Part shown: positions 2,869 to 45,198 of the stretch, piece by piece
Position numbering within the stretch: position 1 is the stretch's first letter
How the letters are laid out: every line of letters begins with the position of its first letter
NCBI RefSeq assembly: GCF_009914755.1
Contig: NC_060929.1
Reading direction: 5' to 3' (one strand)
Length of the DNA: 64,000 nt
Source: the human T2T-CHM13v2.0 reference genome, Homo sapiens
Made by a program: the position numbers and the translations under genes
The notes under the pieces: model-generated
The model's database searches: none
What the model saw: only the letters and a program-made list of their open reading frames with translations
Told to the model about the DNA's origin: nothing

Positions 2869-3115
2869 TTCCCTTTTGGTTGAAAGATGGCATTGTTAAT
2901 ACGTAGAATTGTATTCACCTGGTAAAGACATCATTCACACACTCCATAAAGTTTAATTTTAAATTAAAAGAATTTTTGCTCTGACATTAATCCTATTAAC
3001 AGAATAGAGAATTCAAAATTATGTCAAGAAGCAACACAAGCTTTTAACACTGTAATAATTGGCACTGTTCTGTAGATGATATTAAGAAGCCCAAGGTTAC
3101 AGAAGGATGGAAATA
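2869..3115 (+). repeat. Unique-sequence donor of the inverted copy at 4279-4523
   Basis: Reverse complement of 4279-4523, with about 5 substitutions and one 2-bp indel by eye. Confidence 0.95.
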
Positions 3116-4224
3116 ATAACTGAATGGTTCAAGTTTTCTCACTAATTACATTTTATTATTACACTAGGGAAAATATTCCAATAAAGCAATCAATGAGGAA
3201 GGGGCTTAAAACTATATAAGAAATATGGCTTATAATTTAGCAGTTTTTAAATGATCACACACAGTACCTTGTATGTAAGTGCTGCTCAAAAATTATTGAC
3301 TTTTAAAAAATAATAATATATTTTAATATTGTTGTTATTTCCCTAATATAAACTTGTTTTAATACAAGAAGAATGAGGGCATTTAGTCTTTCTAGTGATC
3401 TGATACCTTTGTCACCTAGTTCTCTGTTTTATTTACTCTTAGTTTTATCATCATTTTTGATAATTTTTTTATATAAAGCAATAACCTACTCAAACACCAG
3501 CCCACTATTTTACAGTTATTTTTATTTAGAAAACTCCATTAACATTTACCTCCACATTTCCATTCCAACACCTGGGACCTATATTACCCTAAAATATTTT
3601 CTCTTTGATACCATTTTGGAAGCAAGTTTTTGATCAATTATTACCCAAAATATATTGATTATCTTTTTATTTCATCAAGACCAATTTCTTAGTCATGCTA
3701 CTTACTACTAATATATAAACTCCCATCTTATTCTACTTTTTTCTTCTACCCAGCCTTTCTTCCTTTCTTCCTTCCACCTATCTTCATTCCCTCATTTATT
3801 TATTCAGAAAACACAGGTATGTGGCAATCCTCAATATGAAACTAAATATCTGGGGTTTCCTTTGTGGCTCTACTGCCTGAGTTCCTTTTCCCAAAGTTAA
3901 ACTGCACTGATGTACTCAAGAAAGCACAATATAATTTAACTTTAAAAACTTCATTTTAAAATCTGTGCTCAAATTGTCTTTATAGACAAACAAAACTGAC
4001 TTTATTGTGTTCAACATTTAACAAAATTAAAAACATTTATAAATAAAGAGTCAATGTCTGAATCGACTTTAACTTTCACATTCATCTTGCCAAATGTGGT
4101 ACTTTTAGTTAGGCCCTCTGTTATGGTTCTTCTTAGTGTGAGAAATGGAAGACTGATTCTGATCCTGCGCACAGGAATGCACTGTGTGAGGTCTTACTTG
4201 CTCCCAAGCTTATACTTGTGAGAT

Positions 4225-4545
4225 TATATATATATATATGTGTGTATATATATATATATGTATATATACACACATATATATTTCCATCCTTCTGTAACCT
4301 TAGGCTTCTTAATATCACCTACAGAACAGTGCCAATTATTAGTGTTAAAAGCTTGTGTTGCTTCTTGACATAATTTTGAATTCTCTATTCTGTTAATAGG
4401 ATTAATGTCAGAGCAAAAATTCTTTTAATTTAAAATAAAACTTTATGGAGTGTGTGAATGATGTCTTTACCAGGTGAATACAATTCTACGTATTAATAAT
4501 GCCATCTTTCAACAAAAAGGGAAAGATATATATATATATATATGT
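4225..4545 (-). repeat. (TA)n/(TG)n microsatellite interrupted by a 245-bp inverted copy (4279-4523) of 2869-3115
   Basis: TA tracts at 4225-4280 and 4526-4543 directly flank 'tttccatccttctgtaacc...catctttcaacaaaaagggaa', the reverse complement of 2869-3115. Confidence 0.95.
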
Positions 4546-5199
4546 AATCACAATGAATCACATTGAACATACATGAATATGGATGTTCCCAGTGTGAATG
4601 CTCAGTTACCTTATAAATCATGCCTACAAGGTGCTTTATGGTTTGCAGGTAATCATGACAAGCAGTAGGCACAGTTATCGCCCTACATATAGCCAGAAGT
4701 GTCCACGAAGAGAAAATAATCTTAGAAGAAAACTAAGACTACTTTCTCAGATGATCTTACAGAATTTTCACCCAAAGCAAAGGCATCTTTTGCTGCTGTG
4801 TGACCTCTGAGGAAAGTCCAGAGACCAGGAAAATCAAACTTTCAGTTGATATGATGCTGCTCTGTTCTCCGCTCTAGGTGAGATCAGACTTCCTGACGAT
4901 GCTACTTTAAAGAATCTCCTCTCCTTTGCCTGTGTGTTGATAACTTTTGTCAGTTTCTGCCACTCTGATAACAGTAATGTGTAAATAAAGTTGTTTGGAA
5001 TGTATTTGTATATTTACTAAGAAAATTAAATTTTTTTTCTAAGGGTAACTAAACACGTGTTTATTTTTTTCCATTTTCCTTCCAAATGGAAAGGGAAAAT
5101 GCTTTACTCCACCATTGAAACTTTGTGAAGCTTTCTCTTTTTGAACATTTAGAACTTACTGTAAATTTTTATTAATGTATTACTTGAATTTTCAAATTC

Positions 5200-5395
5200 A
5201 GAATCAGACACACTTGTACAAATCTGTCCTACTACTTAAAAGCTATGTACCCTGGACTCTCAATTTCTCTGAAACTCAGTTTCCTCATCTATAAATAGAA
5301 TGCTACCAGTGCCCACCTCACAAATTGTTATGTTCAATGGGACATAATGTGTTTAATCAGTGTTATCAACATTATAAACATTTTATTATTGTTGC
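5200..5395 (+). mobile_element. MIR SINE
   Basis: MIR core 'ctctgaaactcagtttcctcatctataaatagaatg...cctcacaaattgtt'. Confidence 0.75.
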
Positions 5396-6142
5396 AATCA
5401 TAATAATAAAGAGTATTCATTTCAATTGTTTAATAAACACTTTAGTTTAATTCTAATATCTTCCAGTAAGTCTGAGTATAAAGATATTGTATTTATACAG
5501 ACAGCTTTTAATAATTTCCTTTTGTATTTGGTAAACCTTTATTATTTGGAAGAATATATTTGATTAACACAAATACTCAAATTGAGACAACATGAACCAA
5601 ACACAAATCATTGAAATTAGTTTGATTGTTGGCAAATCTCTGTATCCTCAGAATAAATTATGCAAACAACTCAAAGACTGAACAAATAAAACAAACACTG
5701 GAAATATTCTTGGGGATTTTATGTTATCTATGGAAAGCATGAAAAACTAATTCTTCCATTTTCTGTTTTCATGACCATCCTTTAAGAGATGTCAGAAATG
5801 CATTTGGAAACTAAATCAAGATCACAAAATTGTACAATTCAAAATGCACAGAAACATGTATTTCCCTAGTTTATTACTTCAAAAGTCTCTATGAAACCTT
5901 AGTATTTCTTAAACTTATATATTATACTATGATAGCAGGAATTTCTTTTCTTAATGCAGCTATTCCAACTACGTCAAATAATTTGAATCCCAAATATTTT
6001 CGTTTTGGCATTAACAATATGACAAAGGAAAAACCTTTAGGAGAAAAAGAAGATATCATAGACTGAGATGTAAAATATACACAAGGAAAAAGTGGCAATT
6101 ATGTTTAACTAGCATCGTCCCTCTGAACGTGACATACACTGA

Positions 6143-6320
6143 GCAATTGTTCTCAACATGGAATCACTTACATCAGAATCACTGGAGGCATTTTTAAACA
6201 TTCATCCCCAGGACATGAGTCAGACTCCCCAAATCAAATCTCCAGAACTAAAATCTGAGAACCTGCATATTTAACAAGCTCCCAAGGTGATTTTTATACA
6301 CATGAAAATTGATAAGCTCT
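6143..6320. mobile_element. MER5A-like hAT-Charlie MITE
   Basis: 'ttctcaac...catcagaatcactggag...ctgcatatttaacaagctcccaaggtgatt' is typical of MER5A. Confidence 0.7.
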
Positions 6321-6509
6321 CACCTTAGACTGATTCACCTGATCTGTACCCAAAGGTTTCAGAAAAACGATTAGGTAAAGAGGAGCCTAAAGCAGTTGTA
6401 CAAAAATTCCAATTTTGGTGTATATAGTTAGTTCAGTGTTCGTCTTTGTGCAAAATAGCTGATCTATTATTCTATGAGCTATCATTAGTAGGGGATTTAC
6501 TAAGTCTCA

Positions 6510-6720
6510 TATACTGTGTGACAACTGCTTAGCATACTCATTTTATCTTTATCTCCTAACTCCATAAACTAAATACTACTATCCCTATTTTACAGATGAG
6601 AAGAAATGAGATCAGTAAGATTAAGTACTTGCCCGAAGTATTTTGATTAGTAAAGAACAGAAAATGAATTTTTAACTCAGGCTTGAATGATTTCAAAGCT
6701 CATATTTCTGACTATTATAT
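6510..6720 (-). mobile_element. MIR SINE
   Basis: 'tatccctattttacagatgagaagaaatgag...ttaagtacttgcccgaag' is the reverse-orientation MIR core. Confidence 0.75.
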
Positions 6721-8094
6721 AAATAACATCTAATAGGTCTCTATGGCACTTGGTATTACCATACGGACTCCCATGCAAATACTAATTAATCTTAACTTTT
6801 GAGGAAGGACTGTCTTCTGTCAACATGGTCTTGTCATAAAATATTTTATACCTGGTACTACTTATTAATGTTTATCATATGTTTACTTACACTATCTCCT
6901 TGGATCCTCAAAACAGTTCTGTGACATGAGACAAAGCAAATTATTGTCATCATCTGCAAATGGAGAGATTAGGATAATACCAAGTACCATAGGGATGTAT
7001 TAGAGGACTGGGGACAAGAATCCACATCTTTTATTGCCTGATATATTTTCTTTTGCTCCCACTATACTGACCCACTAGAAGCCAAGAATTTCCTATATAT
7101 CCACTTGAACTCAAACGTTTGTCTAGAAAAAAATATTTTAAAGACAAAATACGGTAAAAATTTGGCCGACTGATAGCAAGTGAAGAGGTGACTTGCAATA
7201 ATAATGGTGACTTTCCAGGGCTATAAAAACTATAAACATTTTTCAATGCTGTAATTACAAAGTTTTGCTCTCTTTCCCCCCACTCTCTTCATCCTGCCAG
7301 AAGAGGGTGAAAACAGCCACTATCTGACACTACTACCTATATTAAGGCTGTATTATAGAGTTACAGTGCTAATCTCTTCCTTACAGTCTTAAGTCTTTTA
7401 ATCTTGTATTTTATAAAGGGGAAGTATAATCCTAGCTACATATAGATGAATCACTTGCCTATTCAACAAACTTTTATTGAGTGCTCAAAATGCATGAGGA
7501 CCCGTGCTAGTTACCAGGAGTACAGAGCTGATGAAGTCACTCCCTTAATTAGCATTTACTTTCACCTACTCAGGATTCCATTGACTCCTAACTTAACATG
7601 CAATTTTAGAGTGGAGATATTTGAAGGGAAGTACTTTCCAAGTTGGCATATATTTTGTTTTAAACCTTTTAAGTCTACAGTAGAATCATGTATTACTTGC
7701 TTACAACAGAAATGTAAAATTGCCTGGGAATGACTACTTCTCTGGCACATTTATGCTTTACACTTATTTATTTCAATGTGAAAATAAAATTGACTTGAAA
7801 CTTACCACTTTTCTATATTCGTTGTGGTGATTTAATTTCTTTTCCTAGACAAGTTACCTCATCAAATTAAATGCTTTTCCGTGCCCAATGTTTCAATGTC
7901 ATAATAAACTAAGTTATTACATGGAAGTTACTATTACATAAATCTTGACTTGTTGGGTTCCTGGCCTACTACTCCATAGATACTTTAGGCATATTTTATG
8001 CACAGATACCTGGTAACCTTATACACTGAAGAATCTTAAATCTCACAGAGGACATATAGTAAACATAATTTTGTTTACTTTTACATTGTTCTTC

Positions 8095-8765
8095 TAACAA
8101 ACGGGGGTCTAATCAGAAGACAGAAACCACACAGTAATCTGAATGAGGAATGCTTGATGTAAAGAATTACTGACTTATAACAGGGAATTAGAAAAATAAA
8201 GGATTGGCTAGGAAGGAATACAAAGAACTCTGAAAAATATGAGTAGAAAATGTATGATATAGACACTGCCTCTAGGGTGAGATAGAGTGCCCAAGTAAAG
8301 GATTACATTTGGAAGAACTTCCTTCCCTTTTGGGTTATTTTCCTAGTACTGAAATCTAGATCTCATAGGAAAGTAAAAAGCCTTGACTCTGGACAATGGA
8401 GACATTCACTGTGGCTACAAATCTCCTTGAGTCTAGGTGCAGGGTAGGTCACTCAGAGGAAGCACCAGTCTACCTAACAGTTCAGCCAAGTGCTGCAGGA
8501 GATTCATGGTATGGCAGAAACTGGCCATGTTGTAAGAGCTGGGCACTGCAAAAACCACATGTGCTATAGGAGCCTGTCTACAGGAACTCACCTGACTCTG
8601 AAGAAAAAAAAAAAAATCCCTTCACTTTTCAGTATCTCTTCTGCACCCTCCACTGACAAAGTTTAGCCTCGGTGCGCTAGCAAAGAGAAATATTATAGGG
8701 TCCATCTCCAGGATCGCAGAGCAGGCCATTCAATGTGGATTTGGAGCTAAATATATAACTGACAC
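8095..8765. mobile_element. Ancient LTR (LTR78-like; family uncertain)
   Basis: Start 'gggtctaatcagaagacagaaaccacacagtaatctgaat...taaagaattact' resembles ancient mammalian LTR termini. The segment is more GC-rich than its flanks. Confidence 0.45.
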
Positions 8766-10229
8766 ATTGATGGTAGTATAATTTTTTATTTCTAGCTAAC
8801 CCAATTTTAAGCTATTTTGAAGATATTGAGAATCTTGGTCATTACTGTATGTAGAGGGTCACTGGCATCTTTTAATAAAACTTTGTCTAATTTAGCGTAA
8901 AATCCACAGAAAGCATTAGTGACTGCTATGAAAAGGTATAATGTAAATGTGATACCATAAATATAAAAGAAAACAATTTAGGGATTATATCGCAGTAATT
9001 TCCATAAGATAAGAATCTTAAAATTTAAAAAGGTAGATATATTTTATAAAATTTGATTAGTTGTACCAATCAAACATGTGTTAGAAGAACAATTTTTTTA
9101 AGCAATTGTAAGTTTTTCCAAATAAATGAGTCAGTTAAGCCTAAGTAACTATTCCCCAAATTAGGTAGAAATAAAAATAAAAATTTGTTTCCTTAAATTT
9201 TTATATAAATATTTAACTGAAATGTATCTCCTAAATAAGATTTTCCACACAGAGAGCATTGAATAGAGATGTACTAAAAGATATGTCTAGAGTCCTGAAA
9301 AAAAATCATAGAAAATATACCAAATCAGCCAGTAAACAAAAGCAATATATAGATATACAGAAAGCTCTGGGAAAATAACAGAAGAAAAAAAATAAGTAAT
9401 ACAAAATGGCAGAATGTCTTCATATGTGTGTATGAGAGTCTTGATTTCTCAGGACATTCACTGCAAATATGTGCATGGAAAAAGCATTTCAGAATTCATA
9501 TATTTCTGTCTTCTGGGATGGAGTGGCAGAGTCAAGGGTTTGTAAAGAGTGAAACTAGGTTTCGTCTGGAGTGTTTGGATGTGTGTTTGTATCTGTGTGT
9601 CTGTGGGTGCATGCACAGGCATACACACACCCATTCTTTGCATGGCTATTAACAGAAGAAAATCTGGGGTTCAACAACATGGCTAAAAGCAAAAGGTCAG
9701 TGTTTTGAAGTCATTTGCAAAGTAAAGTTGCGCTTCAGAGAAGCAAGGGGCCAGGGAGTTGGTCTTCAGAGATAGTTCATTAGGCAAAAGAGTTAAAACT
9801 GTAAAAGAATCCAAAAGATACAGAGCAAAAGGGGAAAACTGTGTTTTGGTAGGACTCTCCCATTTTACTCTCTGATCATGATTTATGTCCTCAGTATCTG
9901 CCTAAAAGAGATGAACTGATTCACCTTTATCATAACTAGTCATTCTTGATTTCAACTTGTGTGTATAGTGGAAGCACACTTTTATCTTACTGCAAAATCA
10001 GATTATACTAACTCATGGTGCTAGTAGCTTAACTTCCCTGAGCTTGTTGCTTCTCCATATCTTGTTTGTTGTAACCAAAGTAAGTTAGAGATACAGGATA
10101 TTGAGTTAGATATGAGTTGCAAACTCCTTTTCCCATTACCAAACCTATGTCTATGGCTATAAACGCATCCATATTCTCCTTTCCACTGATCCAAATGAAT
10201 TCCTAATAGATACAAATGCTCAACATGTA

Positions 10230-10690
10230 CTGCACCTTCCTCTTCTATCTTATCAATGAATTTGTTATCATATTACTCACACTCCCTATAGAATTATAAT
10301 TCTTTCTCTTCCTTATTCTCACAGTATAAATACATGCTCTATAATCTGCTATCTTTGAAACAATCCCCTTTTAACTCTCCAGGTTTTTCTCATTTTTCTG
10401 CTCCTTCTGACAACCAAACTTATAAAATCATTTGTCTACAGATATCTTTCTCTCCCTTCCCATTCATATTTTAACCCACAAGACTCTAATATTCATCTCT
10501 GTACTCCATAAAACCACGCTTATAAATTGCCAAATTGCCAAATTCAACATAAATATTCTTTTTTTGTCTTATTCAATATCTTGGTAGCTCAGTAGTAATG
10601 ACTACTCTCTCATTAAAACATTTTTTCTTGTCTTTTCAGATATACTGCCTTGCCTCTTCTCCTACCTTCTCTGTTTCTTTTGCTGAAGTT
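10230..10690 (+). mobile_element. L2 LINE fragment
   Basis: Pyrimidine-rich L2-like text, e.g. 'tactccataaaaccacgctt...gccaaattcaac...tgactactctctc'. Confidence 0.5.
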
Positions 10691-11381
10691 GAATGATTAT
10701 GACAATATCATCAATAAATTAGACTTAATTAGATTCACCTGTGTTTCTCTCTGGCATGCTCTCTCATCAATTGTAAATAGTTGGAGTTACTCATTATCTA
10801 AGGAGTTTGAAGAATGTTAAGGGGGATGAGAATGACAATCATAATTCTTTTTTTCTTAAGAATATGCATGTGTTTGTTTTATAAAGACAAACACATACAT
10901 CACCACTGTCACCAACCACCACAATATCTTTGGAAATATGACTAGGGAATTTTTACTTTTTAAAAATATATGTAGAAAAATTAGCCTACCTACTGATACT
11001 GGAGGCTAGTTTATTTGTCCGTTTTTTCAAACTTCCAAAAGCAACTTTTCTTTTAGAACAAAACCTCTTAAGAGATTTTTCTAATATAAATAAATGACAA
11101 CTTAAAAACACGCTTAAAACTTATAAATGCCTAATCCTTTGAAGAAACTTACATCGAATAATAGCCTGATCTACAGCACCAATTTGATGTGGCCTTCATG
11201 ATGTTTATTCCATCATGATTACCAGTATCAAGGTTTTCCTCCTCAGAATTTAGGTATCAACAAAACAAATATTTTAACAAGATAAAATAATAGACTATAA
11301 ACTTTTAACATTTAAAAGAAGCCAAGTGATCATTTCCCCTTGTCTCCAGATTTTTTAATTAGGGGATTCAAGTACAAACAT

Positions 11382-11790
11382 TGTTTTGGGTCAAGTTTCC
11401 GAGAAACAGACTCTATGCAAGTAACTTACTAAGGGTGGATTAACAGAAGAAACCCACCAAGGGAATAGCCTACAGGGCACAATAAGGAAACATGCAAGCA
11501 AGGGTGTAACTTCAGGAATAGCCTTAGCTTCAGCATGATCCTGGTGGATAATTTGGAGCGTGAGTTATGTAGCAAACGTTATCCTGCCTAGAAGCAAGAA
11601 AGCTGGGCTTTTATCCTCCTGCCACAGTGGCTCTTTGGATACTTGCGACCCAGGAGACATTAACTCCCAGGTACTTCTGGCTCTGGCTGTCCATCTGGGC
11701 AAAACATATTGCAACAATACAAGGATATTCCACTGAGGAAGACTGCAGATGTGAGCCGTTTGGAGGAAAGCACACAGAAACTGGGGGATG
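11382..11790. mobile_element. ERVL-type LTR (LTR16-like)
   Basis: Start 'tgttttgggtcaagtttccgagaaacagactct' and internal 'gcaagaaagctgggcttttat' resemble the LTR16 family. Confidence 0.5.
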
Positions 11791-12792
11791 TGTGCATCAA
11801 ACCGGTTCTTTCAGTAGCAGATTGAAACACAGATAACTATCAGTAAGATATAGAAAAATTAAACACAGTACAATAATTCACCAAATCGTCCATTTGGATG
11901 ATTATGAAGAAGAGCAATCAGCAGCTAAAGAATTCATGTTCTTTACAAGTGCATTTAGAATATTGATAGAAATTAAACCCAAAGAAAATAAAAGAAGAAA
12001 TTAATAATGTTATAAAAAGATATTCAAAAATTTGGATGAAATAGACAAATTCTTAGACAGATACAGTTTATCAAAGTGTAATAAGGGAAACAGAAAATCT
12101 TAACAGTTAAATAACAAGTTTTAAAATAGAGTTTGTAAATAATATTTTACAGGAAAAGCTTCAGGTGCAGAGAATTACAAGTGAATTATTCCAGTCACTT
12201 AAAAAATAAATATTACCAATTATATACAGACTCTTTCAGAAGACAAAGCAAACATTTGTCAAGAATTACTTTAAGAGGCCAGCTAAACCTGATGCCAAAA
12301 TTTGATGATAAATTGCAAGACAGGAAAATTACAGACCAATCTCCTTTATAAATATATATGCATATATTGCAAATAAATAACTAGCAAAATGAATCAGCAA
12401 TATTTTAAAAAATATTAGGACAAAATTGAGTTGATTCTAAGAATGCAAATTTGTTTTAGATTTAAAGTTAAAATATGATCATAATACATTAAATGTGTTT
12501 ACGTTCAATTAAATTAATATACTAAGCACAATAAAATGTTTTCAACACAACTAATGACCAAATTCATATAATCACAACTAGACGCAAAACATTATTTAGA
12601 GAAATTCAACTTTAATTATTAAAAATAGTAAGAGAGGAATAGAATTGAGCTACCTTCATCTAATATTGGCTACCTTCAAAAACCCTTCAGCAAATTTTTA
12701 ATGTAATGGTGAAACGTTGAAATTTTCCCAGTTAGATCAGTCTCAAAAGAAGGAGGTCAACTATCACAACTGCCATTCATTATTGTGCTAGA

Positions 12793-13022
12793 ATAATTTG
12801 TTACTCATGTAAAATTAAAATAGATTTTTATATATTGAGGTTGTATTCCACATTCTTCCTAAATGCACTTAACAATTCTAAAAATGTATCTGTAGATAAT
12901 AAATATTTTATTTATTTTATTTTAGATACATTTTTGGAGTTGTTATGTGCATTTAGGAAGAATGTGGAATACAAGCTCGATATATAAATTTCTGTTTTAA
13001 TTTTGTATGAGTAACAAATTAT
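12793..13022. repeat. Inverted repeat, ~99-bp arms (12793-12891 / 12924-13022), 32-bp spacer, ~90% identity
   Basis: 'ttgtattccacattcttcctaaatgcac' pairs with 'gtgcatttaggaagaatgtggaatacaa'; the arms align end to end with about 10 mismatches. Confidence 0.93.
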
Positions 13023-13305: not shown

Positions 13306-13509
13306 ATACATATATATATCAGCTATGATATATATATATGATATAAATATATCAGCTTGTGTATATATATAGTATATATAGTATATAGTATATACAGTAT
13401 ATAGTGTATATAGTATATACAGTATATATATATCACACAGGATATATATACACATATGATATATATATACACATATATATTTCTTCATATGTATACATAT
13501 GAAGAAATA
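13306..13509. repeat. Complex (TA)n tract inside L1M ending in a perfect 32-bp palindrome (13478-13509)
   Basis: TA-rich array; 'tatttcttcatatgta|tacatatgaagaaata' is self-reverse-complementary. Confidence 0.9.
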
Positions 13510-21289: not shown

Positions 21290-23110
21290 ATAATTGGAAG
21301 TACCAGGTGCTGCAGAAGTCAGTAGTAAAACATTAGCAGTAAAGCAAAAATCTAAAGAGGGAGCAGTTAGAGCACCAGGTTCTCCCTCCTAGCTCAACCT
21401 GACAAACATCTTTTCTCTATTCTTGAAGGGGGTGGAAAACATCATTCCCTATAAAGACTGAATGAAGAAAGCTCTGGATTTGAAAACATCAGGAACACAA
21501 AAGAGAGAAAATGCTGTGATGTGCTGAAAATAGTGAATTATTTGGTTGGTGCAAAAGTAATGGTAATTTTTTGCCATTACTTTTAATGGTAAAAGCCACA
21601 ATTACTTTTGCACCAACCTAATAGTTGAAAATCCAGAGACGTATTTATAGACTCAAGGAAAGAGATTAAAAACTCTCTTCTAAAAATCCTAAACCACACT
21701 AGAGAAAAGATTTATATAAACCAACATTTAAGTGTCTTCACTGGAAAAACCACTCTATTGTAAAGGTGATCTTCAAAAAGGCTGGCCATGCACACAAAGC
21801 TCTCAAATGTTTCTGAATTGCTTATTCTCAAATATAAATGAGCTACCAAAGACTTTTGAGTAATTTCCAAAAACTTCCACCATTACAAACCACAACAAAG
21901 TATAAAGACAAAACTTAGGAAAAACAGAAACAATACAGGAGCAAGAAAGTACACACTTATCCAAATAAATTTAGAGTTAATATGTTCAGAAAGATGACAC
22001 ATGTGCCAATTCACAAGACCGGAGAAAGATGCTAGAAACATGATTAGAAACTATCAAAAACCTCAAGGAATAGAAAACGGAGAAAGAAAAAAAAAACAAG
22101 TAATAGAAGATAAAACTAAGAAAATTTCCTAGTTAGTAGTATAAAATAGCAAAGACTGAAAAGAAAAATAAGAGAGAAAGGGAAATAAAAGATTAATCCA
22201 GTAGAGCCAATATCTAACTAATAAGAATCTCAACACAAGAAAGTAAAGAACATGTTGAAGGAATATTATGAACATATTTTAACACTGAAGGAAATGAGTC
22301 TACAAATTGAAAAGATCTACTAAATGCTGAACACAATTATTTGAAAAAGACTCACGGCAAAATAAATCACTGGAAATTTTCAAACATCCTAATAGTAAGC
22401 GAATTTAAAAGCATCCAGAGGAACAGCACAAACAAGTAGCCTTGGGCTTTTCAACAGCAACATTAAAAATTATATAATCATGGAGCATAGCCTTCAAAAT
22501 TCTGAGAGAGCATAATTTAGAATCATATACCTACCCCAAATATCAGGCAAGTGTAAAGTTGGGATAAAGATGGCTTCAAACACGCAAAATCTTTTTTTTA
22601 AATTTACTTTTCATGTATCATTTCTCAGATATACTAAACTAAGTATTGCACCAAAACTAGAGAGGAAACTAAGAAAACGAAGACAGGAATCCAAGAATCA
22701 GAGGATCCAACATAGAAAAGAGGCGAAAGTAATTCTCAAAATCTTAGGTGGCCAGGAAGCCCGTACAACCAATCTGGATGGAAAAGGGGAATGGGAGTTT
22801 CCAGGAGGAGATCCCCAAGAAGAGAAAAGCAGACAATCTTACAGCTTTGATCATTTAGAAAATATTGTGTGCGTGCGTATGTGTATGTTTTCTGGAGAAT
22901 AAAATGTTCTTCAATAAAAGAAATATATAGTAGATCTCTTGGCTCAGCAATTAATTATTTGCACTGTTTAAATAATAACTCTGGATACTAATTTCAGCAA
23001 AAAGTGAAGCATTCGTTTGGAGGATGATAGAAAGGAAGAGAATGTATAAAGGAGCTCAGTCTTCATTAAATTATTGAAGAATGGGATATTGATATGAAAA
23101 ACAAAGACTA
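21290..23110 (+). mobile_element. Ancient L1M 5'/ORF1 region, very decayed
   Basis: A-rich L1 ORF1-like landmarks: 'tagaagataaaactaagaaaatttcc', 'atatctaactaataagaatctca', 'ttttcaacagcaacatta..atggagcatagccttcaaaattctgagag'. Confidence 0.65.
21541..21621. mobile_element. MADE1 (Hsmar1-derived ~80-bp MITE)
   Basis: 'ggttggtgcaaaagtaat...gccattacttttaatgg...attacttttgcaccaacctaa' forms the near-palindromic MADE1, flanked by TA. Confidence 0.93.
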
Positions 23111-34874: not shown

Positions 34875-35904
34875 AATATTTTGTTTTTTATTAGGAGTAT
34901 TAAACAATTATATTCACTTTTAATTCAATTCTTGCCTTTCTATACTGTGTGTATACTTTTTTAAAAATGAAAACATTACTAACAACAAAAACAAAATCAC
35001 CAATTAAAATTCTTCACCCCAAAATAATTCAGAAACATAAACATATTTACATGGTAGAAGGGTATGTGGCAAACCCTATAATCAGTCATTTTAAACATTC
35101 TGTTTCACATGAAGCTTCACTCTAAATTCATTTAATAAAATTCTTAAGAAAATCCTTGGATGGTTAATTACAAGATAAATGAAGATGAGCTCAGATTATT
35201 TTTGATTCCTTCTTACAGTTTTCATTGTGCTCTTCTTCTAAAATAGATATATAGGTTTAATATATATTTATTATATATATACATATCTATCTCTATCTAT
35301 CTATAGATGTAAAAGCAAGTACAAATGAGGTACAAAAAAGAAAAAAATCGTTTTTAAAAAGAGGAGAAAAAATAAAAATAAAATAAAAAGAGGAGGGTGG
35401 TTCCAAAGATGGACTATCACAGCCACCAACAAAGGGAAATTTCCATAAAGGAAATAATCTCTCCTTTTAAAATAAAAAATTAGCTTGACATGGTGTTAAA
35501 AAGATGATGGAATTAAAAACACGGGCTGATTTTCAAGCATAGTTTGCCTTATGAAACGCACAATGTTGATCACAATGTAAATGTGCTGACTTGCCGGTGC
35601 CCACTCTCTGAGTTTGGCTTGCCTGTTCTAGCATTTGTACTGTACCAATTCAATTCCCTCACCACTTTCCTCTATTTGAAAAACTGTGCAACCTATTTGA
35701 CATTTTCTTGTCCAAATATATTTTTTATATATCAAATCCTCCTCTTTTAAATTTTCCATTTACTTCTGATTATTACGTATCACAAGTTGATACCAACAAT
35801 ATCAGGCTTATTTGGCAGTAGGTTATTTGGCAGTAATCCACAAAACGCAGAACATGCTAATATCAAATTCTGTGTTATCATCAAACATTGTTTTTGCTTT
35901 ACCA

Positions 35905-36180
35905 CTTTTTAAAATTGAGATTTTTTTCGAATACCATAAAATTCACCCGTTTAAAGTAAACTACCATCTGTGGTTTTTAGCATATTAGTAAGGTTGGGCA
36001 ACCATCACCTTTGTCTATTCCAGAACATTCTCATGACCCCAAAAAGAAAGCCCCATAACCATTAGCAGTCTCTCTCATTTTCCCTCTCTCCCCACCCCAG
36101 GCAACCACTAATCTACCTTCTGTCCCTATAAATTTGCTTATTCTGGACATCTCATATAAATAGAATCAAACAATATGTTA
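35905..36180 (-). mobile_element. L1MB/ME 3'UTR fragment
   Basis: 'taccataaaattcacccgtttaaagt..caaccatcacc..ttccagaacattc..caggcaaccactaatctaccttctgtc..tattctggacat'. Confidence 0.85.
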
Positions 36181-36574
36181 TCAAATTTAATCACAACATT
36201 TAAAAACAGAAAATCTGCCAACCCTTGAGAATACGGCAGCAGAGCTCAATTAAGGAAATATTTGTATACAATAATACCAAAGCAGGCAAAGAAATATGAT
36301 GGAGGAAAATTTTTTAAAAAAAGGAAATGGAATACTTTTTAAGATCCTACTTTAAAATATTCAGTTCTTACCCCTTACGGAATAAAAATCTCCAAGGAGA
36401 AAGCCTGGGTGTTTGTATTTTAAAAAGCTTTTCTGGGGATCATGGTATTTGGCCAGGTTTGCTTTAGGCCATACTCTGACTCATTTCTAATGCATGTCAT
36501 TTCTAGAATTTGATTGATTCAATGATCCATTTGCAAGAGTCTAAGCCATTCAGTTTGATATGTTGAAGAAATAC

Positions 36575-36606
<32 letters not shown>

Positions 36607-39600
36607 CAAATAGCAATCCCACAATATGCTAATGTTTTAATAACTTCTTAGTTTGTCTATGCAATAATTAATTGCTTAATTGTGTTTCTAGACATCTACA
36701 AATGTGCATAATTTTAAATTTTACAATAAAAATTAAATGTATATTTATTTAGATTTCTTAGTTCTTGCTTTCATTTATTTTGCATAAGCAATGCTACACA
36801 CATGCAAATTGATACAAACAGAAATTAAGCTCCCACAAATTATTTCATTTATGTTTCTAAATAGACTCATAACTAACAGAAAAAATTTACCAGAAAAAAT
36901 ATAAACATTTGTATTTAAAATGGTCATGTCCAAATATCATGAAAATTTTAAATATAATTTATTACTTTATGTAAAAAGTGGTGAATACTGAAATAGCTAC
37001 AGATATGGTAAAAGATCAAAACAATTTTATTTCCATTGAATTTTAAGATATGCCAACAAATGTACTTTGTTCTACATTTCCTTCACAAATATTTTGTCAT
37101 CTCTCTCTGCCTGAAGCTTATCTCAGTAATTAAATGCTTTGAATTAAATTTTATATGTATTTTCTTTTTTAATTCATCACTTCATATCCAATATCTCTGA
37201 CAAGATATGTAGAATTGAGTCACTAGAAGGTTATATATGACCAATAGCATTTATTGTAAAGAATAGAAACACTGGTATGAAGCTACCTGAATATATGTGG
37301 TAGGCTCAGAAATGCTACTACCTTCTTTGCCCCACAAGCAAAGACAGATTAAAATATGTGCCTCACAGTGGATTTTTAAAGGGCAGGGCAAGAGAGAGAG
37401 CAAGGTAGGCCAGGGTTCTAGCTAGGCCAGGATTGAAGATGGGGAGGGAAAATCAAACTACTTTGGCATTGAGTCTTAATCAACAATATAATTTCTGATA
37501 AAGTTCTATCTCAGCAACTGGCCTTAATTGTTCAAATGTATCAAAGGACATGTAACCACCATAAGTTTTGACAACCACACCAATCCTTTGGGGGAAAAAT
37601 ATACTGCCTCAAGACAATTCTTCGTGAAATGTCTTGCTCTATCTAACATAAGATAACATAGTGTAGGTTGCTCCATTTCCAAAACATTTTAGGAGTCTTG
37701 ATTCCCCTCAATTGATTTATAGTTCCTCCTACAAAATTCTGAGTTCTTAACATACCTACCTCATGTTAATTCCTGGGCAACTTTTGCAATCAAGCTCAAC
37801 AGGCAAAGTGCTACATTACTATTGAGAACTACAAAAAGATATGGTCAAGAGTATTGCAATTCATTGAATAAATCGCTAGGTTGAATCCAAATTTAAGAAT
37901 AGAAGAATTTTTTTTCACTGATTTACATTAAATTTCAGAGTTACTTTGCTGTTTTTCTTTTTTCCCCCTGATTATCCTTATATTAGCTCTGGCATCTTCA
38001 GTTCTTCAGTTAAAAGTTTGTTTGTCCCAGGCCTCTGTTAAGTAGATAATATTTTGAAATACATGTAAGGCATTGTTAACAGGTCCTTTGGGTTAATCTC
38101 ATTAGATAAAGAATACTTTCCATTGAAATTAAACACCAGCCTTCTGGTTAATCATTTTTGTGACTTCAGGTTTTCATATGCAGAATTTATTTCATCCATT
38201 ACATTTGCTCTTAGAATTTTTTTTTTAATTCTTCTTTCCAGCTGTCTCTTGATTACTTGCTTTCAGTTGGTATTCTCTCCCAACAGTTTGTATTTTTCAA
38301 ACACTGTTAACTAGCTGATTAGCTACTTTTGTTACTTTTAATCAACTATATCAAAAATAGTATTTCTTCAACTTTTCTGAGGTTGCAATCTACACATGTA
38401 CCTGTAGAATACACCAAATAATTCTGATTTTTTATTGTCAAATACTCATGTTTTCAAACAAAATAAAATCTGCTTTGCAGAGTCAAATTGTGCCAATTTG
38501 ATATTTTTGTTAGATTAGCCACAAGGAAGTTTATAGTTTGAAGCTAGATTGCTTGAGTCTCTTAATAATCTTGTTCTTGCTCATCTAAATCCAAATGATT
38601 ATATGACTTAGATCCTATTGGAGTTTATCCTAAACTACACTAAATCAAGCATGGCAACAATAATCTTTGATTTTAAAAGGTGTGTATTCAGATGATGAGG
38701 ACTATATTTTAAACATCAGGACAAAGGCAAATTTAAAGCTCCAAAAATAAACATGGCTCTTGTACTGGATACCTTTTTTTTTTTTAATTTGCCACTTATT
38801 CTGATGCATGGAAGATTACAGTTATCTCCTTTTTTCCCTGAGGAATTCAAATGCTGGTCACATAAAGCATCTTATTCTCATTCTGACAGGGTGAAAGAAT
38901 TAGTACTCCACGTAGCAATCTTGCTCTCCCTCCCTCTGCCTGTTGCCAGCTTACTTTTTGTTCTTATACTACAAAAGCAGAAAGTGATTTAAGTTTAATT
39001 TTTCTCCTTTGAAGTCATAATGAATAATCATAAGGATAAGTCAATATGTTTTAAGAATCCAAAGGATAATAACTCTGTTGTATTCATTTTCTCAAAACAG
39101 ATGCCCCCTGGAAAGCATATTTCATTTTTGAAACTTTAAAAATATTACCCAGCAAGGGATGGGATAGATATATAAGTTATAAGTCACAGCTGTTTAAAAA
39201 TCACAATAAACCCAAATCTTAAAAATTCAGAATAAACTGTTAATATTTATAAGATGCCATATTGCCTCTTACCTAGATTAATACACACTGAAACTACATT
39301 TCTCTCTGAAACTGACACATAATTTATTTTATGAAGTAGTGAGAACAAAACTAATAATTCCACAATAACAAGGGGAACAATATGATTGTTTTGTATATGT
39401 CATAAATATATACGTATCTATCAATATTGAGCATTGCAAATATATTAACAAATTCATTTGCATAAAAACACAATAAAAATTTAAAAGAAATGAAAGTTTA
39501 GCTGTACATTTTTATAAATTGGCAACCCATCAAGAAAATACTGCTAAACATTGCTTTGATTACTATAATTATTTTTTAACTTTTGGAGAGTACAGGATGA

Positions 39601-40004
39601 GACTATTTTGATTACAATTTTGATTAAGAAACTGGAAATATGACTAATAAATTTAGTCATATTTATCAATTACTTCCTTTTTCACTTAGAGCAAAATTAC
39701 ATCAATAAAAATTTCTGTATCAATAAGTACCATTTTACTTCTCTTTCAAATATTCATTTGGATTCTCTTCCTTCTGGAAAGTCTAGTTGGAGACAAGTTA
39801 GCTGATTGAGTAAAGAAATCAAAAGTCAAAAGAACTGTAAATTAAGTCAGTCTATGTGGAACAAAGAATATGGACATTAAATAGCTCTAGATCCTCAGCT
39901 CTGTCATTCACTAACTATATCACCTCACATAAGTCTGAGTCTGAGCCTTAGACAAGTTTACTCACCTATAAAATGGAGGTTATAAAAGCTAAGGAGATTT
40001 TTTT

Positions 40005-40332
40005 CTTTCTTGTTTATTGCTTTATTTGAGACAAGGTGTCTCTCTCACCCAGGCTGGAGTGCAATGGTGCGATCACTGCTCACTGCAGCCTTGAGCCCAC
40101 AGGCTCAAGCAGTCCTCTCATCTTAGCCTTCCAAGTAGCTGGGACCACAGGCATCCACCACCATGTCCAAATATTCATTTCATTTTATCTTATTTTATTT
40201 TATTTTATTTTATGTAGATACAGGGTCTCCCTATGTTGCCCAGGTTGGCCTTGAACTCCTGGGTCTAAGTGATCCTCCTGCCTCACGTTCTTAAAGTGCT
40301 GGGATTACAGTTGTGAGCCACCATGACCAACC
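40005..40332 (-). mobile_element. AluJ
   Basis: Antisense dimer 'gagacaaggtgtctctctcacccaggctggagtgcaatgg...cagggtctccctatgttgcccagg...aaagtgctgggattacag'. Confidence 0.92.
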
Positions 40333-40375
40333 TAACATTGGTTTACTGTGAGGAATATATGGGACATTAGTTTTG

Positions 40376-40714
40376 TTAGGGTGCATGATCACTTAAGATT
40401 TTATACGTATACATATATACATCAGGTAATATACATATACATATATACATTAGATTACACATATACATATGTACATCAGGTCTATACATATACATATATA
40501 CATTAGGTTATATACATATACATATATAGATTAGGGTGTGTGATCATTTAAGATTTTATACATATACATATATACATTTCTTAAAGTGCTGGGATTACAG
40601 ATGTGAGCCACCATGCCCAGCCTAACATTAGTTTACTGTGAGGAATGAATATATATAGATATACACACACATATATATATGTATATATATGTGTGTGTAT
40701 ATATATATGTGTAC

Positions 40715-40782
<68 letters not shown>

Positions 40783-41415
40783 TTGGTTATCCAAGAAGAG
40801 GTTTGACTAAGACCATATCTATCTATATATATGTATGTGCATGTGTGTGTGTATATATATATATATTCCTCACATTATATATTTATATATATATTCCTCA
40901 CAGTATATATTTATATATATATTCCTCACAGTATATATATATATGTCACAGTATATATATATATGTCACAGTATATATATATATACCTCATAGTATATAT
41001 ATATACCTCATAGTGTATATATATATATTCCTCACAGTATATATATATAGTATATATATATTCCTCACAGTATATATATATAGTATATATATATTCCTCA
41101 CAGTATATATATATAGTATATATATATTCCTCACAGTATATATATAAATATATATATTATATATATATATATATATATTTATTAAGTGCATACTGTGCCA
41201 ACACTGTTCTAAATCCTGAGAATTCTACAGGTCTGAATAAAATCCAGCCCTGAAATAAATAGAAGAGATGGACCCTTGCCTGTAAATGTAGGAGAAGCTC
41301 CCTTAAAGGAATTCCACTTAATTGAACTGTATGACATCAACTGATGCTCTCTGTTCCTACTGTAACATGTAATTGATAGATGTCCATGGTGCACTGAGAG
41401 TTAGGTTAATTTGGA

Positions 41416-41451
<36 letters not shown>

Positions 41452-42720
41452 CTATATATATATATATATGTTCCTATATATATATATGTTCCTATATATA
41501 TATATATGTTCCTATATATATATATACCTCACAGTATATATATACAGTATATATATAGTATATACATTATTCCTCACAGTATACAGAGTATATAAATTAT
41601 ATAGTATATTTTATTCCCCACAGTGTATATATAGCATATATCTAGTATATATATTATATATAGTATATATACACACACTATATATTATATATAGTATACA
41701 TATACACTATATATATTACATATATAGTATATATATTCCTCACAGTATATATAGTATATCTATTATTCCTCACAGTATATATAGTATGTATATTATTCCT
41801 CACAGTATATATATACAGTATACATATATACTATATACAGTATATACTATATACACAGTATATACTATATAGAGTATGTATACAGTACACATACATACTG
41901 TATATATACTGTGAGGAATAATTGATATACTATATATACTATATATACTGTGAAGAATGTATATACACTATATATATACTGTGAGGAATATATATACACT
42001 ATATATATTTTATACTCTATATACTATATATACTATATACTCTCTATATAGTATATGTTGTATATATATACTATATATACAATACATACTCTATATACTA
42101 TATATACTCTATATACTCTATATACTATATATACTCTATATACTATATATATTATATATACTATATATAATATATATACACTGTATATACTGTATATACT
42201 CTATATACAGTATATATACTATATATACTGTACTATATATACTATATACTATATATACTATATACACTATATACTATATATACTATATACACTATATACT
42301 ATATATACTATGTATACTACATAGTATACTATATACACTATATATACTATATATACTATATACACTACATGTACTATATACGCTATATATACTATATATA
42401 CTATATACACTTTATATACTATATATGCTATATACTATATACACTATATATACTATATATGCTATATACTATATACACTATATACTATATATACTATATA
42501 CTATATATACTATATATACTATACATACTATATACTATATATACTATATATACTATACATACTACATGTACTGTGTATATATATACTGTGAGGAATATAT
42601 ATATACTGTGAGGAATATATGTATACTGTATATATATACTGTGAGGAATATATATATCTAAGATTTTATACATATACATATATATTTTTTTTCTGCGGAC
42701 ATATATACATATACATATAT
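40376..42720. repeat. ~2.3-kb complex TA-rich array containing templated copies of flanking and nearby unique sequence
   Basis: (TA)n/(TATAC)n background with a recurring TACTGTGAGGAATA / TATTCCTCACAGTA motif. Embedded copies lie at 40578-40646, 40785-40815 and 41180-41414. Confidence 0.95.
41180..41414 (-). repeat. 235-bp inverted copy of 44950-45198 embedded in (TA)n
   Basis: The reverse complement aligns end to end with about 10 substitutions and a 14-bp deletion. The ORF track echoes this (41209-41394 minus vs 44970-45224 plus). Confidence 0.95.
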
Positions 42721-42729
42721 TCATATTTT

Positions 42730-42990
42730 TCTGGGGACTTGGGATGAATGGTTGTGTGACTAGATGTGAAATATATAAGGAGAGGAGATGAAACTCAGTG
42801 TTGAACATACTGAGTTACAGCTGGTGTTGGACATACAGGTGGAGTTGTCCATAAGATAGCTGGATATGTGGTTCTACAGCATGGAAAAGAGATCTAAGCC
42901 AAAGGTACAGACATAAGTATCATAGGCAATGAGAAACTGACACCATGTGATATTGGATGGGGTTATCCAAGAAGTTTGACTTAAGACCAG
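42730..42990 (-). mobile_element. L2 fragment
   Basis: 'gatgaaactcagtgttgaacatactgagtt..ggacatacaggtggagttgtcc..ctggatatgtgg' resembles antisense L2. Confidence 0.65.
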
Positions 42991-44949
42991 TGGCAACTGA
43001 TGAATTTTCTAAAGCTAAATGTATCCAGTAGTTTAAATCCAACTTCATACCAAACATTTTCCCACTTATAGCCATAAACAAAGATTAAAAGAATCTAGTT
43101 TGATTTTTTTCCAAGTAAAGATGGTAATGAATAGTAAAATGATTCAGAAAAAGAAAGCCAGAATATAATTCAGAAGCCTGAATAATTTACAAATTAGAGA
43201 CACGAAACCCAAAAGATTAAATATAAACTAGTGACTGAAAAAGGCACATGACTGATTATTCAAGGCACATGACTGATTACTCCTTCTATCTAAATCAGTA
43301 AAACACCCCCTACCCTACCTTCACCAGGCAGTACTGGGTAATGTCATTAGCATTCGACTTCTTCAAAGAGGAAAAGTTAAAGGAAGTACAGCAAAGTATA
43401 CTCATATCTCCTTTTTTTTCAAGTTAAAGATAATAGAAAACCTGCCATGACATAAAATCTGCAAATATAATTTTAAAAATGCCAAAAAGATGAAAAGAAA
43501 CTCAAAAGTATGGATCTCCAATTTCTTCCACTTTACTCTGAATAACAAAGCTGTTTTTCACATATATTGTGAACCTTTCAGCAATTTGCTGGAATAAAGA
43601 TAAATCACCCTGCATTTCCATGTAATAAGAATGCTCTGCTGTCAGTCAGAAGTAGAGATTGTGGAACCTGATTAAATAATTTTTCATTCCTTTTCACTCT
43701 GTTTAAGAAAATTGTACTCCCTAAATTCATATAAAATACAGTTTGGTTTGCTATAACAACAACAACATAAAAGAAAACAGATGAATAAAATTCTAATGTT
43801 AGAGTACATTTTAAAATCACCAATTTAAAAAACCATATTAATTTTTTCAATTAATTTTCTGTATATTTCTTCATTAAAAGTGAAATATTTTAATACATCT
43901 TATTTCCAGTAGAAACATTTCAAGAAATATTTAATGCATATCCCCCAAAGCTTAAATATTTTATGGTCTCTTTTTCTTTGAATTTAAAAGTGCTTGTATT
44001 TCTAATATTAAATCAGTAAAATTGAAATATTCATATTCTATTTGTCTCTAAATTAAGAGTTCTCATTTTTCTCCATTCCTAAAATGTCTGTCTCAGCTAC
44101 CTGAGAAGTAAAACACAGGGCACAAAAATAATAACCTGAAATAATCTGAAGGGCTTTGTTTTTATCTATGTCTATCAGTTTTTGTTGACTTAGCTCATCT
44201 CGCCTACTTGTAATTCTAAGATTTAAAGAATCACTGAATAATTTTGAGAAAAAAATATTTTTCCCTTTCTGGTGTTTACTTTTTTGTCATTATTATAGAC
44301 TCACAGAAGAGATAGATTCAAGAAAAATTCAGAACATTAAATAATACAACAATCTGTGCATATTCATACTGACAATGCTAACAAAAGACAAAATGCCATA
44401 AAGAAACAGGAATTTGTTTTACCTGTCTAGGGACAACTGAACTTATTTTTTCAGTATTACTGTAAAGTAGCTCTTCAAGTGGAAAGACATATTAAAGATA
44501 AAATATTCTAAAGAAAGATACATTTAATATTTTTTGTCAGTCTTTACATGATTTTTACTCGTACCATAAATCAATAATGATTTTAGTCACTAATATTTAT
44601 CAAATATTTTCAAATCATTCTACAAAGTTCTCATTTAAATGACAATTATTTTTCTTTTATATCCATATGTTATCCATTTATATAATATTTAAATTATACA
44701 ATTATTAAGATAGAATTCACAGCACAGGGTGGTAAAGTATTAGTATTGCTCTATTTATTAAACCAGTGGGAACATATATATTTCATTTATTATTATAATT
44801 AAAGTTGTGTCTCTCTGTTGTATACACTATTTTATGTGTATTTTTTAAAAAAAATAAGTTCAATTGGTATAAACATAATTGGGAAAAAATAGTCCATTCT
44901 CCTGCTAAGTAGGTAAGACTATTTTTGGTGGTGAATGCAGAAAACATCC

Positions 44950-45198
44950 CCAAATTAACCTAACTCTCAGTGCACCATGGAAAACTATCAATTACATGTC
45001 ACAGTAGGAACAGACAGCATCAGTTGATGTCATACAGTTCAATTAAGTGGAATTCCTTTAAGGGAGCTTCTCCCACATTTACAGGCAAGGGTCTATCTCT
45101 TCTGTTTATCTGCGATCTTACATTTCGGGGCTGGATTTTATTCAGACCTGTAGAATTCTCAGGATTTAGAACAGTGTTGGCACTGCATGCACTTAATA
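44950..45198 (+). repeat. Donor segment of the inverted copy at 41180-41414
   Basis: See 41180-41414; the donor retains the 14 bp that the copy lacks. Confidence 0.93.

What the first reader, a model, noticed from the sequence alone, without database searches (positions are those of the whole stretch)
2869..45198. (TA)n tracts act as recurrent capture sites for ~250-bp inverted copies of nearby unique DNA
Seen: two unrelated TA tracts 37 kb apart each contain an inverted copy of local sequence (4279-4523 from 2869-3115; 41180-41414 from 44950-45198). The donor spans are 247 and 249 bp. Both copies are bounded on both sides by TA runs, start on a TA microhomology, and return to the tract through 'AG(A)ATATAT'. 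Neither has poly(A), a TSD or TIRs. Their divergences differ (~2-3% vs ~4% by eye), suggesting separate events. Established: long (TA)n form cruciforms, stall forks and are cleaved by MUS81 when WRN is lacking, and Pol theta end joining or MMBIR can leave templated insertions. Inference: this may be a germline, TA-break-driven local copy-paste process with a characteristic tract length, possibly set by Okazaki-fragment or nucleosome size. I do not know whether it has been catalogued genome-wide.
Basis: partly seen in the sequence, partly recalled or inferred. Interest (0 to 1): 0.8.

Follow-up and report, generated by a model that had tools for sequence, protein, structure and literature searches.

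The report
Inverted local DNA copies inside TA repeats
Two hairpin-forming TA-repeat tracts in a human chromosome 5 gene desert each hold an old, roughly 240-base backwards copy of unique DNA lying 1-4 kb away, which looks like scars of break or stalled-fork repair of a kind already catalogued in human populations.

Summary
4279-4523 is an inverted copy of 2869-3115 (5 mismatches in 245, one 2-nt gap). 41180-41417 is an inverted copy of 44947-45198 (11 mismatches in 238, one 14-nt gap). Each sequence occurs only twice in the whole CHM13 genome, whereas two transposon-derived control pairs from the flanks gave thousands of candidates. Both copies interrupt pre-existing TA tracts.

The second tract is a 1.8-kb palindromic AT-rich array, with the same flank-derived motif on both sides of the insert. 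The best reading is a break or fork stall at a hairpin-forming TA tract, about 250 nt of synthesis on the opposite-sense strand nearby, then rejoining.

The class is known. 277 polymorphic human "inverted duplications" have a median length of 284 bp with 1-15 bp microhomology (PMC12350158). Fold-back inverted insertions at breaks are shown in yeast (PMC11724301).

Not shown here: a genome-wide preference for TA tracts, an inverted bias, or a fixed length. A third copy beside the same tract is direct and only 69 bp. The genome-wide test could not be run with these tools.

The parts
2869..3118 (+). Donor 1: unique sequence with unbroken unique flanks
   Evidence: Only two places in the genome, this one and its copy.
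4222..4281 (.). TA tract left of copy 1. It includes a 21-bp-stem hairpin at 4232-4281 with GTGTGT/ACACAC arms that ends at the insertion junction.
   Evidence: DNA fold -15.8 kcal/mol, z -2.8.
4279..4523 (-). Inverted copy 1 of 2869-3115. 5 mismatches in 245 plus a 2-nt gap. TAT microhomology at the left junction.
4524..4547 (.). AG followed by an (AT)10 run, right of copy 1
40288..40356 (+). Alu 5' end plus flank containing ACTGTGAGGAAT. Source of the 69-nt direct copy and of the motif that fills the TA array.
40578..40646 (+). 69-nt direct copy (65 of 69 identical) of 40288-40356, sitting between a TATACA-type array and the TA tract
40647..41179 (.). Left part of the large TA array. Contains TA/TG runs, the 44-nt perfect palindrome 40659-40702, and units carrying TTCCTCACAGT (the flank motif inverted, 7 copies).
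41180..41417 (-). Inverted copy 2 of 44947-45198. 11 mismatches in 238 plus a 14-nt gap.
   Evidence: Only two places in the genome.
41418..42657 (.). Rest of the TA array. It has 7 more inverted-motif units up to 41806, a symmetry centre near 41860, then 6 direct-motif units from 41908 to 42648. Overall a palindromic AT-rich array.
   Evidence: AGTATA versus TATACT counts switch at about 41860.
44947..45198 (+). Donor 2: unique sequence 3.5 kb right of copy 2
13478..13509 (.). 32-nt perfect palindrome at the right edge of TA tract 13306-13479. An inverted copy of the flank CATATGAAGAAA abuts the tract, as a short fold-back copy would.
   Evidence: DNA fold -11.1 kcal/mol, z -6.9.

Best explanation
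Each insert is a scar of error-prone repair at a hairpin- or cruciform-forming TA tract.

Proposed sequence of events:
1. The tract broke, or a replication fork stalled in it.
2. A free 3' end, ending in TA repeats, paired through 0-3 nt with the same-sense strand 1-4 kb away on the same side. This could be a fold-back on resected single-stranded DNA, or equivalently a switch to the lagging-strand template behind the fork.
3. About 250 nt were synthesised, which necessarily produces an inverted copy.
4. The new strand was released and rejoined to the other part of the TA tract by end joining or TA microhomology.

The events are old (2-5% divergence) and lie in introns of a long non-coding RNA (lncRNA) gene in a gene desert. 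They probably have no function.

Shown: the copies, their uniqueness in the genome, their inverted orientation, insertion into pre-existing hairpin-forming tracts, and junction microhomology of at most 3 nt.

Inferred: the break or stall, the priming geometry, the enzymes involved, and what sets the length.
For: - Both sequences have only 2 genomic places. The same search returns 2857 and 1326 first-look candidates for two transposon-derived pairs from the flanks.
- The acceptor tracts pre-date the inserts. The flank-derived motif occurs 7 times on each side of insert 2 in the same orientation, and TA runs bound both inserts.
- The tracts show hairpin-templated symmetry at several scales. These are the hairpin 4232-4281 ending at junction 1, the 44-nt palindrome 40659-40702, the 32-nt perfect palindrome 13478-13509 at a third TA tract, and the motif-orientation switch at about 41860 in the 1.8-kb array.
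- The four longest distinct perfect palindromes listed (arms of 13-21 nt, at least 2 G/C per arm) all lie in or at the edge of TA tracts.
- Literature, read as passages. Fold-back inverted insertions at double-strand breaks (DSBs) use Pol delta at one end and NHEJ/alt-EJ at the other (PMC11724301). Human polymorphic inverted duplications number 277, with median 284 bp and mostly 1-15 bp microhomology, and a replicative origin is suggested (PMC12350158). Reverse-oriented short template switches in apes are enriched near AT-rich and poly(dA:dT) sequence (PMC7954356). TA repeats are break sites repaired by MMEJ with small duplications (PMC13645644).
Against: - There are only two events and no outgroup genome. 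The empty sites, the direction of copying and the ages are inferred, not seen.
- The yeast fold-back insertions are 2-150 bp with loops of tens of nt. Here the copies are about 240 nt with loops of 1.2 and 3.5 kb.
- Microhomology is at most 3 nt and, in a TA context, hardly informative.
- Under the fold-back geometry the TAT junction is the priming junction in pair 1 but the rejoining junction in pair 2, so there is no consistent junction signature.
- A direct 69-nt copy at the same tract needs a different geometry.
- Unbiased samples gave no further case: 0 of 6 and 0 of 2 tracts, and none among 77 runs.
Confidence: 0.6

Rival explanations
1. Fragment capture. A free piece of nearby DNA, such as a displaced flap, an Okazaki-sized fragment or an excised piece, was ligated by end joining into a break in the TA tract. 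No priming at the donor is involved, and orientation is random.
For: Junction microhomology is 0-3 nt. One local copy at the same tract is direct, and two of two inverted is only p = 0.25 under random orientation. The ~240-nt size is close to the fragment sizes discussed for flap- and Okazaki-derived events (PMC13334657).
Against: Both donors are intact in place, so a copy rather than a cut piece is needed. Both donors lie within 4 kb of the acceptor, which favours a tethered 3' end. Nothing in the sequence distinguishes this rival from templated synthesis.
Confidence: 0.15
2. One complex replication accident (multi-switch MMBIR or a chromoanasynthesis-like event) produced both inserts at once, rather than two independent hits on two TA tracts.
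For: The two divergences do not differ significantly (Fisher p = 0.13). Both events lie within 37 kb.
Against: Each insert copies DNA next to its own tract. The 37 kb between them is collinear, with no other two-copy segments. Point estimates differ about two-fold.
Confidence: 0.08
3. Coincidence. These are ordinary small inverted duplications that happened to land in TA tracts, and TA plays no causal role.
For: No further case was found in the small unbiased samples. The window was picked because of the pattern.
Against: TA-like DNA covers 1.3-4% of the window, so two of two has p of about 2e-4 to 2e-3. A third (direct) copy and a 32-nt fold-back-like palindrome also sit at TA tracts.
Confidence: 0.07
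4. RNA-templated or retroelement-mediated insertion from intronic transcript of the lncRNA gene, or a low-copy DNA transposon with long terminal inverted repeats, or an assembly artefact.
For: The whole region lies in introns of LOC105379064 (hub annotation). Each pair forms ~250-nt inverted arms.
Against: There is no poly(A), and each sequence has only 2 genomic copies. The arms have unrelated outer flanks (unique DNA on one side, TA on the other). The 2-5% divergence plus indels between copies is not what a chimeric read or misassembly gives.
Confidence: 0.05

Closest known systems
Small 'inverted duplications' among insertion-type structural variants in 1,019 human genomes (Schloissnig et al., Nature 2025, PMC12350158; passages and supplement search)
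   Same: The inserted sequence is a reverse-oriented copy of DNA next to the insertion point. The published median is 284 bp (n = 277), with mostly 1-15 bp microhomology and a proposed replicative origin. The present copies are 238-249 nt.
   Different: That catalogue only looked within 2 kb of the breakpoint, and donor 2 is 3.5 kb away. Those variants are polymorphic, while these are diverged by 2-5%. The main text does not mention AT-rich or TA context ('AT-rich' occurs 0 times). Coordinates were not in the 3 supplement files held.
Fold-back inverted insertions at double-strand breaks in yeast (PMC11724301; passages)
   Same: One resected end folds back on inverted microhomology and is extended. 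The new strand unwinds and is captured by the other end. The result is a local inverted duplication.
   Different: The yeast events are 2 to about 150 bp, mostly under 14 bp, with a 41-nt loop. Here the copies are about 240 nt with loops of 1.2-3.5 kb, and the break site is a TA tract rather than an endonuclease cut.
[quoted passage not shown]
   Same: Switch, reverse synthesis and return, creating inverted repeats. The reported events are enriched near AT-rich and poly(dA:dT) sequence.
   Different: Those events are short-range and appear as mutation clusters. The enrichment reported is for poly(dA:dT), not alternating (TA)n.
Palindromic AT-rich repeats (PATRRs) and expanded TA repeats as fragile, cruciform-forming sites
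   Same: The 1.8-kb array 40850-42657 is AT-rich with two arms of opposite motif orientation. Sources: the PMC1851657 abstract in listing one search gives PATRR sizes of about 190-600 bp. WRN/MUS81 at TA-dinucleotide repeats comes from the PMC13669725 abstract in listing. TA breaks and MMEJ come from PMC13645644 passages.
   Different: Arm-to-arm identity is only 70-74%, no better than the direct comparison. No translocation or fragility data exist for this locus. The array units of 20-33 nt also recall the AT-rich minisatellites of rare fragile sites FRA10B and FRA16B, but that resemblance is recalled and not checked.
Small inverted triplications (PMC13334657; passages)
   Same: The inverted fragment has a median of 160 bp. 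Breakpoints lie at Okazaki-fragment termini and nucleosome dyads. The model uses fold-back or opposite-strand priming of a 3' flap.
   Different: That structure is DUP/INV/DUP with 30-nt spacers. Here there is a single inverted copy at kb distance and no flanking direct duplications.

Membership tests
Small inverted duplication (templated inverted insertion), as defined in PMC12350158 | At least 75% of the inserted sequence aligns in reverse orientation close to the insertion breakpoint (within a 2-kb window) | tested here: met
   Both inserts align over their whole length in reverse orientation. Donor 1 is 1.16 kb away. Donor 2 is 3.53 kb away, so it meets the orientation rule but falls outside the 2-kb rule.
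Small inverted duplication (templated inverted insertion), as defined in PMC12350158 | Little or no breakpoint homology, typically 1-15 bp microhomology | tested here: met
   0-3 nt at all four junctions, read. The TA context makes the exact count ambiguous.
Small inverted duplication (templated inverted insertion), as defined in PMC12350158 | Size in the few-hundred-bp range (median 284 bp) | tested here: met
   Copies are 245-249 and 238 nt; donors are 247-250 and 252 nt.
Fold-back inverted insertion at a DSB (PMC11724301) | Priming at inverted microhomology next to the break, with length 2 to about 150 bp | tested here: not met
   The copies are about 240 nt and the priming sites lie 1.2-3.5 kb from the tract. 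It may work in a similar way, but it does not fit the described size or loop range.
Fold-back inverted insertion at a DSB (PMC11724301) | Dependence on Pol delta (Pol32) and on NHEJ/alt-EJ | not testable with these tools
   This needs genetics.
Transposable element (DNA transposon, MITE or retroposon) | Multiple dispersed copies in the genome | tested here: not met
   2 places each, 2 of 2 candidates scored. Positive controls: 40 of 40 scored matches from 2857 and 1326 candidates.
Transposable element (DNA transposon, MITE or retroposon) | Terminal inverted repeats, target-site duplication or poly(A) | tested here: not met
   No poly(A) and no terminal inverted repeats at the insert ends. A TA-type target duplication cannot be excluded because both flanks are TA.
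PATRR (palindromic AT-rich repeat), for tract 40850-42657 | AT-rich near-palindrome of several hundred bp | tested here: inconclusive
   Motif orientation is strictly mirrored. ACTGTGAGGAA is on the minus strand 14 times up to 41806 and on the plus strand 6 times from 41908. AGTATA versus TATACT switches at about 41860. However, arm identity is 70-74% in both the inverted and the direct comparison.
PATRR (palindromic AT-rich repeat), for tract 40850-42657 | Mediates recurrent translocations, or shown to extrude a cruciform | not testable with these tools
   No data.

The most novel reading that the evidence does not exclude
Hairpin-forming (TA)n and palindromic AT-rich tracts are the preferred germline acceptor sites of a quantised copy-paste process. 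A 3' end released at the tract copies one Okazaki- or nucleosome-sized stretch (~250 nt) of the opposite-sense strand within a few kb. The same process, acting on the tract's own flank, progressively builds large AT-rich palindromes such as 40850-42657. If so, a sizeable share of the catalogued ~284-bp human inverted duplications would sit in TA tracts.
Probability: 0.25. Interest if true: 0.6.

Novelty: new member of a known kind. Interest (0 to 1): 0.38.

Why it matters
If TA tracts are shown genome-wide to be preferred acceptors, two well-studied topics would be connected. One is TA-repeat fragility, studied mostly in cancers with microsatellite instability and in extrachromosomal DNA. The other is a germline class of structural variants, small inverted duplications, whose initiating lesion is unknown. 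It would also suggest how palindromic AT-rich repeats grow. As it stands, these are two clean old examples plus supporting small-scale palindromes in one gene-desert window, with no sign of function.

Tried and rejected
1. Genome-wide scan for TA-island-TA structures.

2. Small samples.
- 6 chr1 (TA)17+ tracts had no island.
- 77 chr1 (TA)12+ runs were listed in 35 Mb. Three neighbour pairs lay within 3 kb. One is a TA-run minisatellite and two are separated by Alu-family repeats.
- This screen would have missed pair 2, whose left run is only (TA)10.

3. Transposon idea: rejected by copy number (against 55, 56).

4. Flank-to-flank inverted similarity across 8 TA/AT tracts: none significant (p at least 0.1).

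5. The 45-nt non-TA island 40781-40825 has no donor within 50 kb on either side.

6. Arm-to-arm identity of the big array does not discriminate inverted from direct, because TA is self-complementary. Motif orientation was used instead.

7. The palindrome 12793-13022 is nearly unique in the genome. It does not lie in a TA tract, so it was not counted.

8. 21536-21626 looks like a MADE1-type mariner MITE. I recognised this from memory; no repeat library was available.

10. Literature searches for a stated link between small inverted duplications and TA tracts found none.
Full report
**Observation**

Reading the sequence and aligning it confirms both pairs.
- Pair 1: 2869-3118 matches the reverse complement of 4275-4523 in 243 of 251 columns.
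- Pair 2: 44947-45198 matches the reverse complement of 41180-41417 in 227 of 252 columns, including one 14-nt gap.
- Counting substitutions only, pair 1 has 5 in 245 (2.0%, 95% CI 0.7-4.7%) and pair 2 has 11 in 238 (4.6%, CI 2.3-8.1%).
- The two divergences do not differ significantly (Fisher p = 0.13).
- An independent repeat finder and a self-BLAST of the window (35 pairs) find the same two pairs.

**Are they repeats of a family?**

No.
- A search of the whole 3.1-Gb assembly finds each sequence in exactly two places, the donor and the copy. The first look gave two candidates and both were scored.
- The search does see repeat families. Two other high-identity pairs from the 100 kb of flanking DNA gave 2857 and 1326 first-look candidates, with 40 of 40 scored matches each. 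These two pairs are therefore transposon-derived.
- In the 164 kb examined (window plus 50 kb on each side), 25 pairs had at least 85% identity over at least 60 nt.
- Among these, the only two-copy non-family local duplicates longer than 100 nt are the two reported pairs and the self-palindrome 12793-13022.

**Which member is the copy?**

The donors have ordinary unique flanks. The copies are bounded by TA runs on both sides.

For pair 2 the acceptor tract clearly pre-dates the insert.
- The 11-nt motif ACTGTGAGGAA comes from the flank of the neighbouring Alu (plus strand at 40345 and 40635).
- It occurs 14 times on the minus strand between 40866 and 41806, seven times on each side of the insert.
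- It then occurs six times on the plus strand between 41908 and 42648 (24 matches against 1.35 expected).
- The hexamers AGTATA and TATACT switch strand preference at about 41860.

The tract is therefore a 1.8-kb AT-rich array with two mirror-image arms. The insert sits in the left arm and has no counterpart in the right arm.

**Hairpin potential and small-scale symmetry**

- The 60 nt left of insert 1 fold into a 21-bp-stem hairpin with GTGTGT/ACACAC arms that ends exactly at the junction (-15.8 kcal/mol, z -2.8).
- 40655-40706 folds at -17.7 kcal/mol (z -5.2).
- A third TA tract (13306-13479) ends in a 32-nt perfect palindrome, 13478-13509. In it an inverted copy of the flank abuts the tract (-11.1 kcal/mol, z -6.9).
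- Among perfect palindromes with arms of at least 11 nt and at least 2 G/C per arm, the four longest distinct ones (arms of 13-21 nt) all lie in or at the edge of TA tracts.

These features are what hairpin-templated or fold-back synthesis leaves behind.

**A third local copy**

40578-40646 is a direct copy (65 of 69 identical) of 40288-40356. It is wedged between a TATACA-type array and the TA tract. The tract has therefore also acquired a direct, much shorter copy. This weakens the claims of an inverted bias and of a fixed length.

**Junctions**

- Microhomology is at most 3 nt: TAT at 4279-4281, and 0-3 nt at 41179-41182.
- The 'AG(A)ATATAT' motif is inside the donor-derived alignment in pair 2 and outside it in pair 1, so it is not a common signature.
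- There is no poly(A).
- A target-site duplication cannot be judged in TA.

**Mechanism**

Any inverted local copy requires synthesis on the strand of the same sense as the primer. Two geometries give this.
- A resected 3' tail folds back on itself.
- A nascent leading strand switches to the lagging-strand template behind the fork.

Both place the start of synthesis at the donor end nearer the tract. The first fits the kb-scale distances better, because resection exposes kilobases of single strand. I cannot distinguish the two from the sequence.

Published support, read as passages:
- The fold-back-plus-end-joining pathway is shown in yeast, with insert lengths of 2 to about 150 bp (PMC11724301).
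- Polarity reversal of nascent strands at structure-forming microsatellites is described in human cells (PMC11161834).
- TA repeats are documented break sites repaired by microhomology-mediated joining with small duplications (PMC13645644).

**Comparison with what is known**

- The 1,019-genome long-read study reports inverted duplications as the commonest non-mobile-element inversion class. There are 277 events with median 284 bp and mostly 1-15 bp microhomology, and the authors suggest a replicative origin (PMC12350158). The present copies fit that class in size, orientation and junctions. Donor 2 lies beyond the 2-kb window used in that study.
- Short reverse-oriented template switches in apes are enriched near AT-rich and poly(dA:dT) DNA (PMC7954356).
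- An Okazaki or nucleosome link has been proposed for small inverted triplications (PMC13334657).
- I found no paper stating that small inverted duplications prefer (TA)n tracts. The three supplement files held for PMC12350158 contain no coordinates, so that call set may already hold the answer.

**How common?**

The small unbiased samples gave no further case.
- 0 of 6 chr1 (TA)17+ tracts.
- 0 of 2 (TA)n tracts in the flanks.
- Among 77 chr1 (TA)12+ runs, three neighbour pairs lay within 3 kb. All are explained by a TA minisatellite or by Alu-family repeats.

The last screen was too strict to detect pair 2 itself, so it only shows that such structures are not frequent.

**Age**

If copy divergence accrues like orthologue divergence, 2% and 4.6% would place the events roughly between the gorilla/orangutan splits and the orangutan/Old World monkey splits. 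This rests on recalled ape divergences and wide confidence intervals. Error-prone synthesis at the time of copying would make the events look older than they are.

**Verdict**

This is a real and neat pair of old templated inverted insertions at hairpin-forming TA tracts. They are new members of a known class. The generalisation to a TA-specific, length-quantised germline process is plausible but untested.

Noticed in passing
window 12793-13022: A 230-nt self-palindrome with arms of 99 nt (about 86-90% complementary) and a 32-nt A/T-only spacer. It is nearly unique in the genome, with one weak chr14 hit (77% over 76 nt). It could be an old adjacent fold-back duplication or a very rare MITE. 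It lies 280 nt from TA tract 13306-13479.
   Followed up: partly
window 40394-40419, 40549-40574, 42659-42684: The 26-nt string TAAGATTTTATACATATACATATATA occurs three times (0-1 mismatch), flanking a 28-nt minisatellite (40402-40535) and closing the large TA array. This indicates further local duplications around the same tract whose order I did not resolve.
   Followed up: partly
window 21536-21626: A 92-nt palindromic element that looks like a MADE1-type mariner MITE. Recognised from memory; no repeat library was available.
   Followed up: no
window 2368-2660: A 290-nt AT-rich array of nested inverted and tandem repeats (units of 25-85 nt), 200 nt upstream of donor 1. It carries no inserted copy.
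   Followed up: no
L026:7197-7650 and 86948306-86948765 of the same contig (window 81197-81650 and 86306-86765, outside the window): Two direct 454-460-nt repeats, 89% identical and 4.7 kb apart, belonging to a family with over 1300 genomic candidates. They look like the two LTRs of one endogenous retroviral element. Observed only.
   Followed up: partly
window 60120-60143: A 24-nt perfect palindrome, CTTTCTTTCTGGCCAGAAAGAAAG, not in a TA tract.
   Followed up: no
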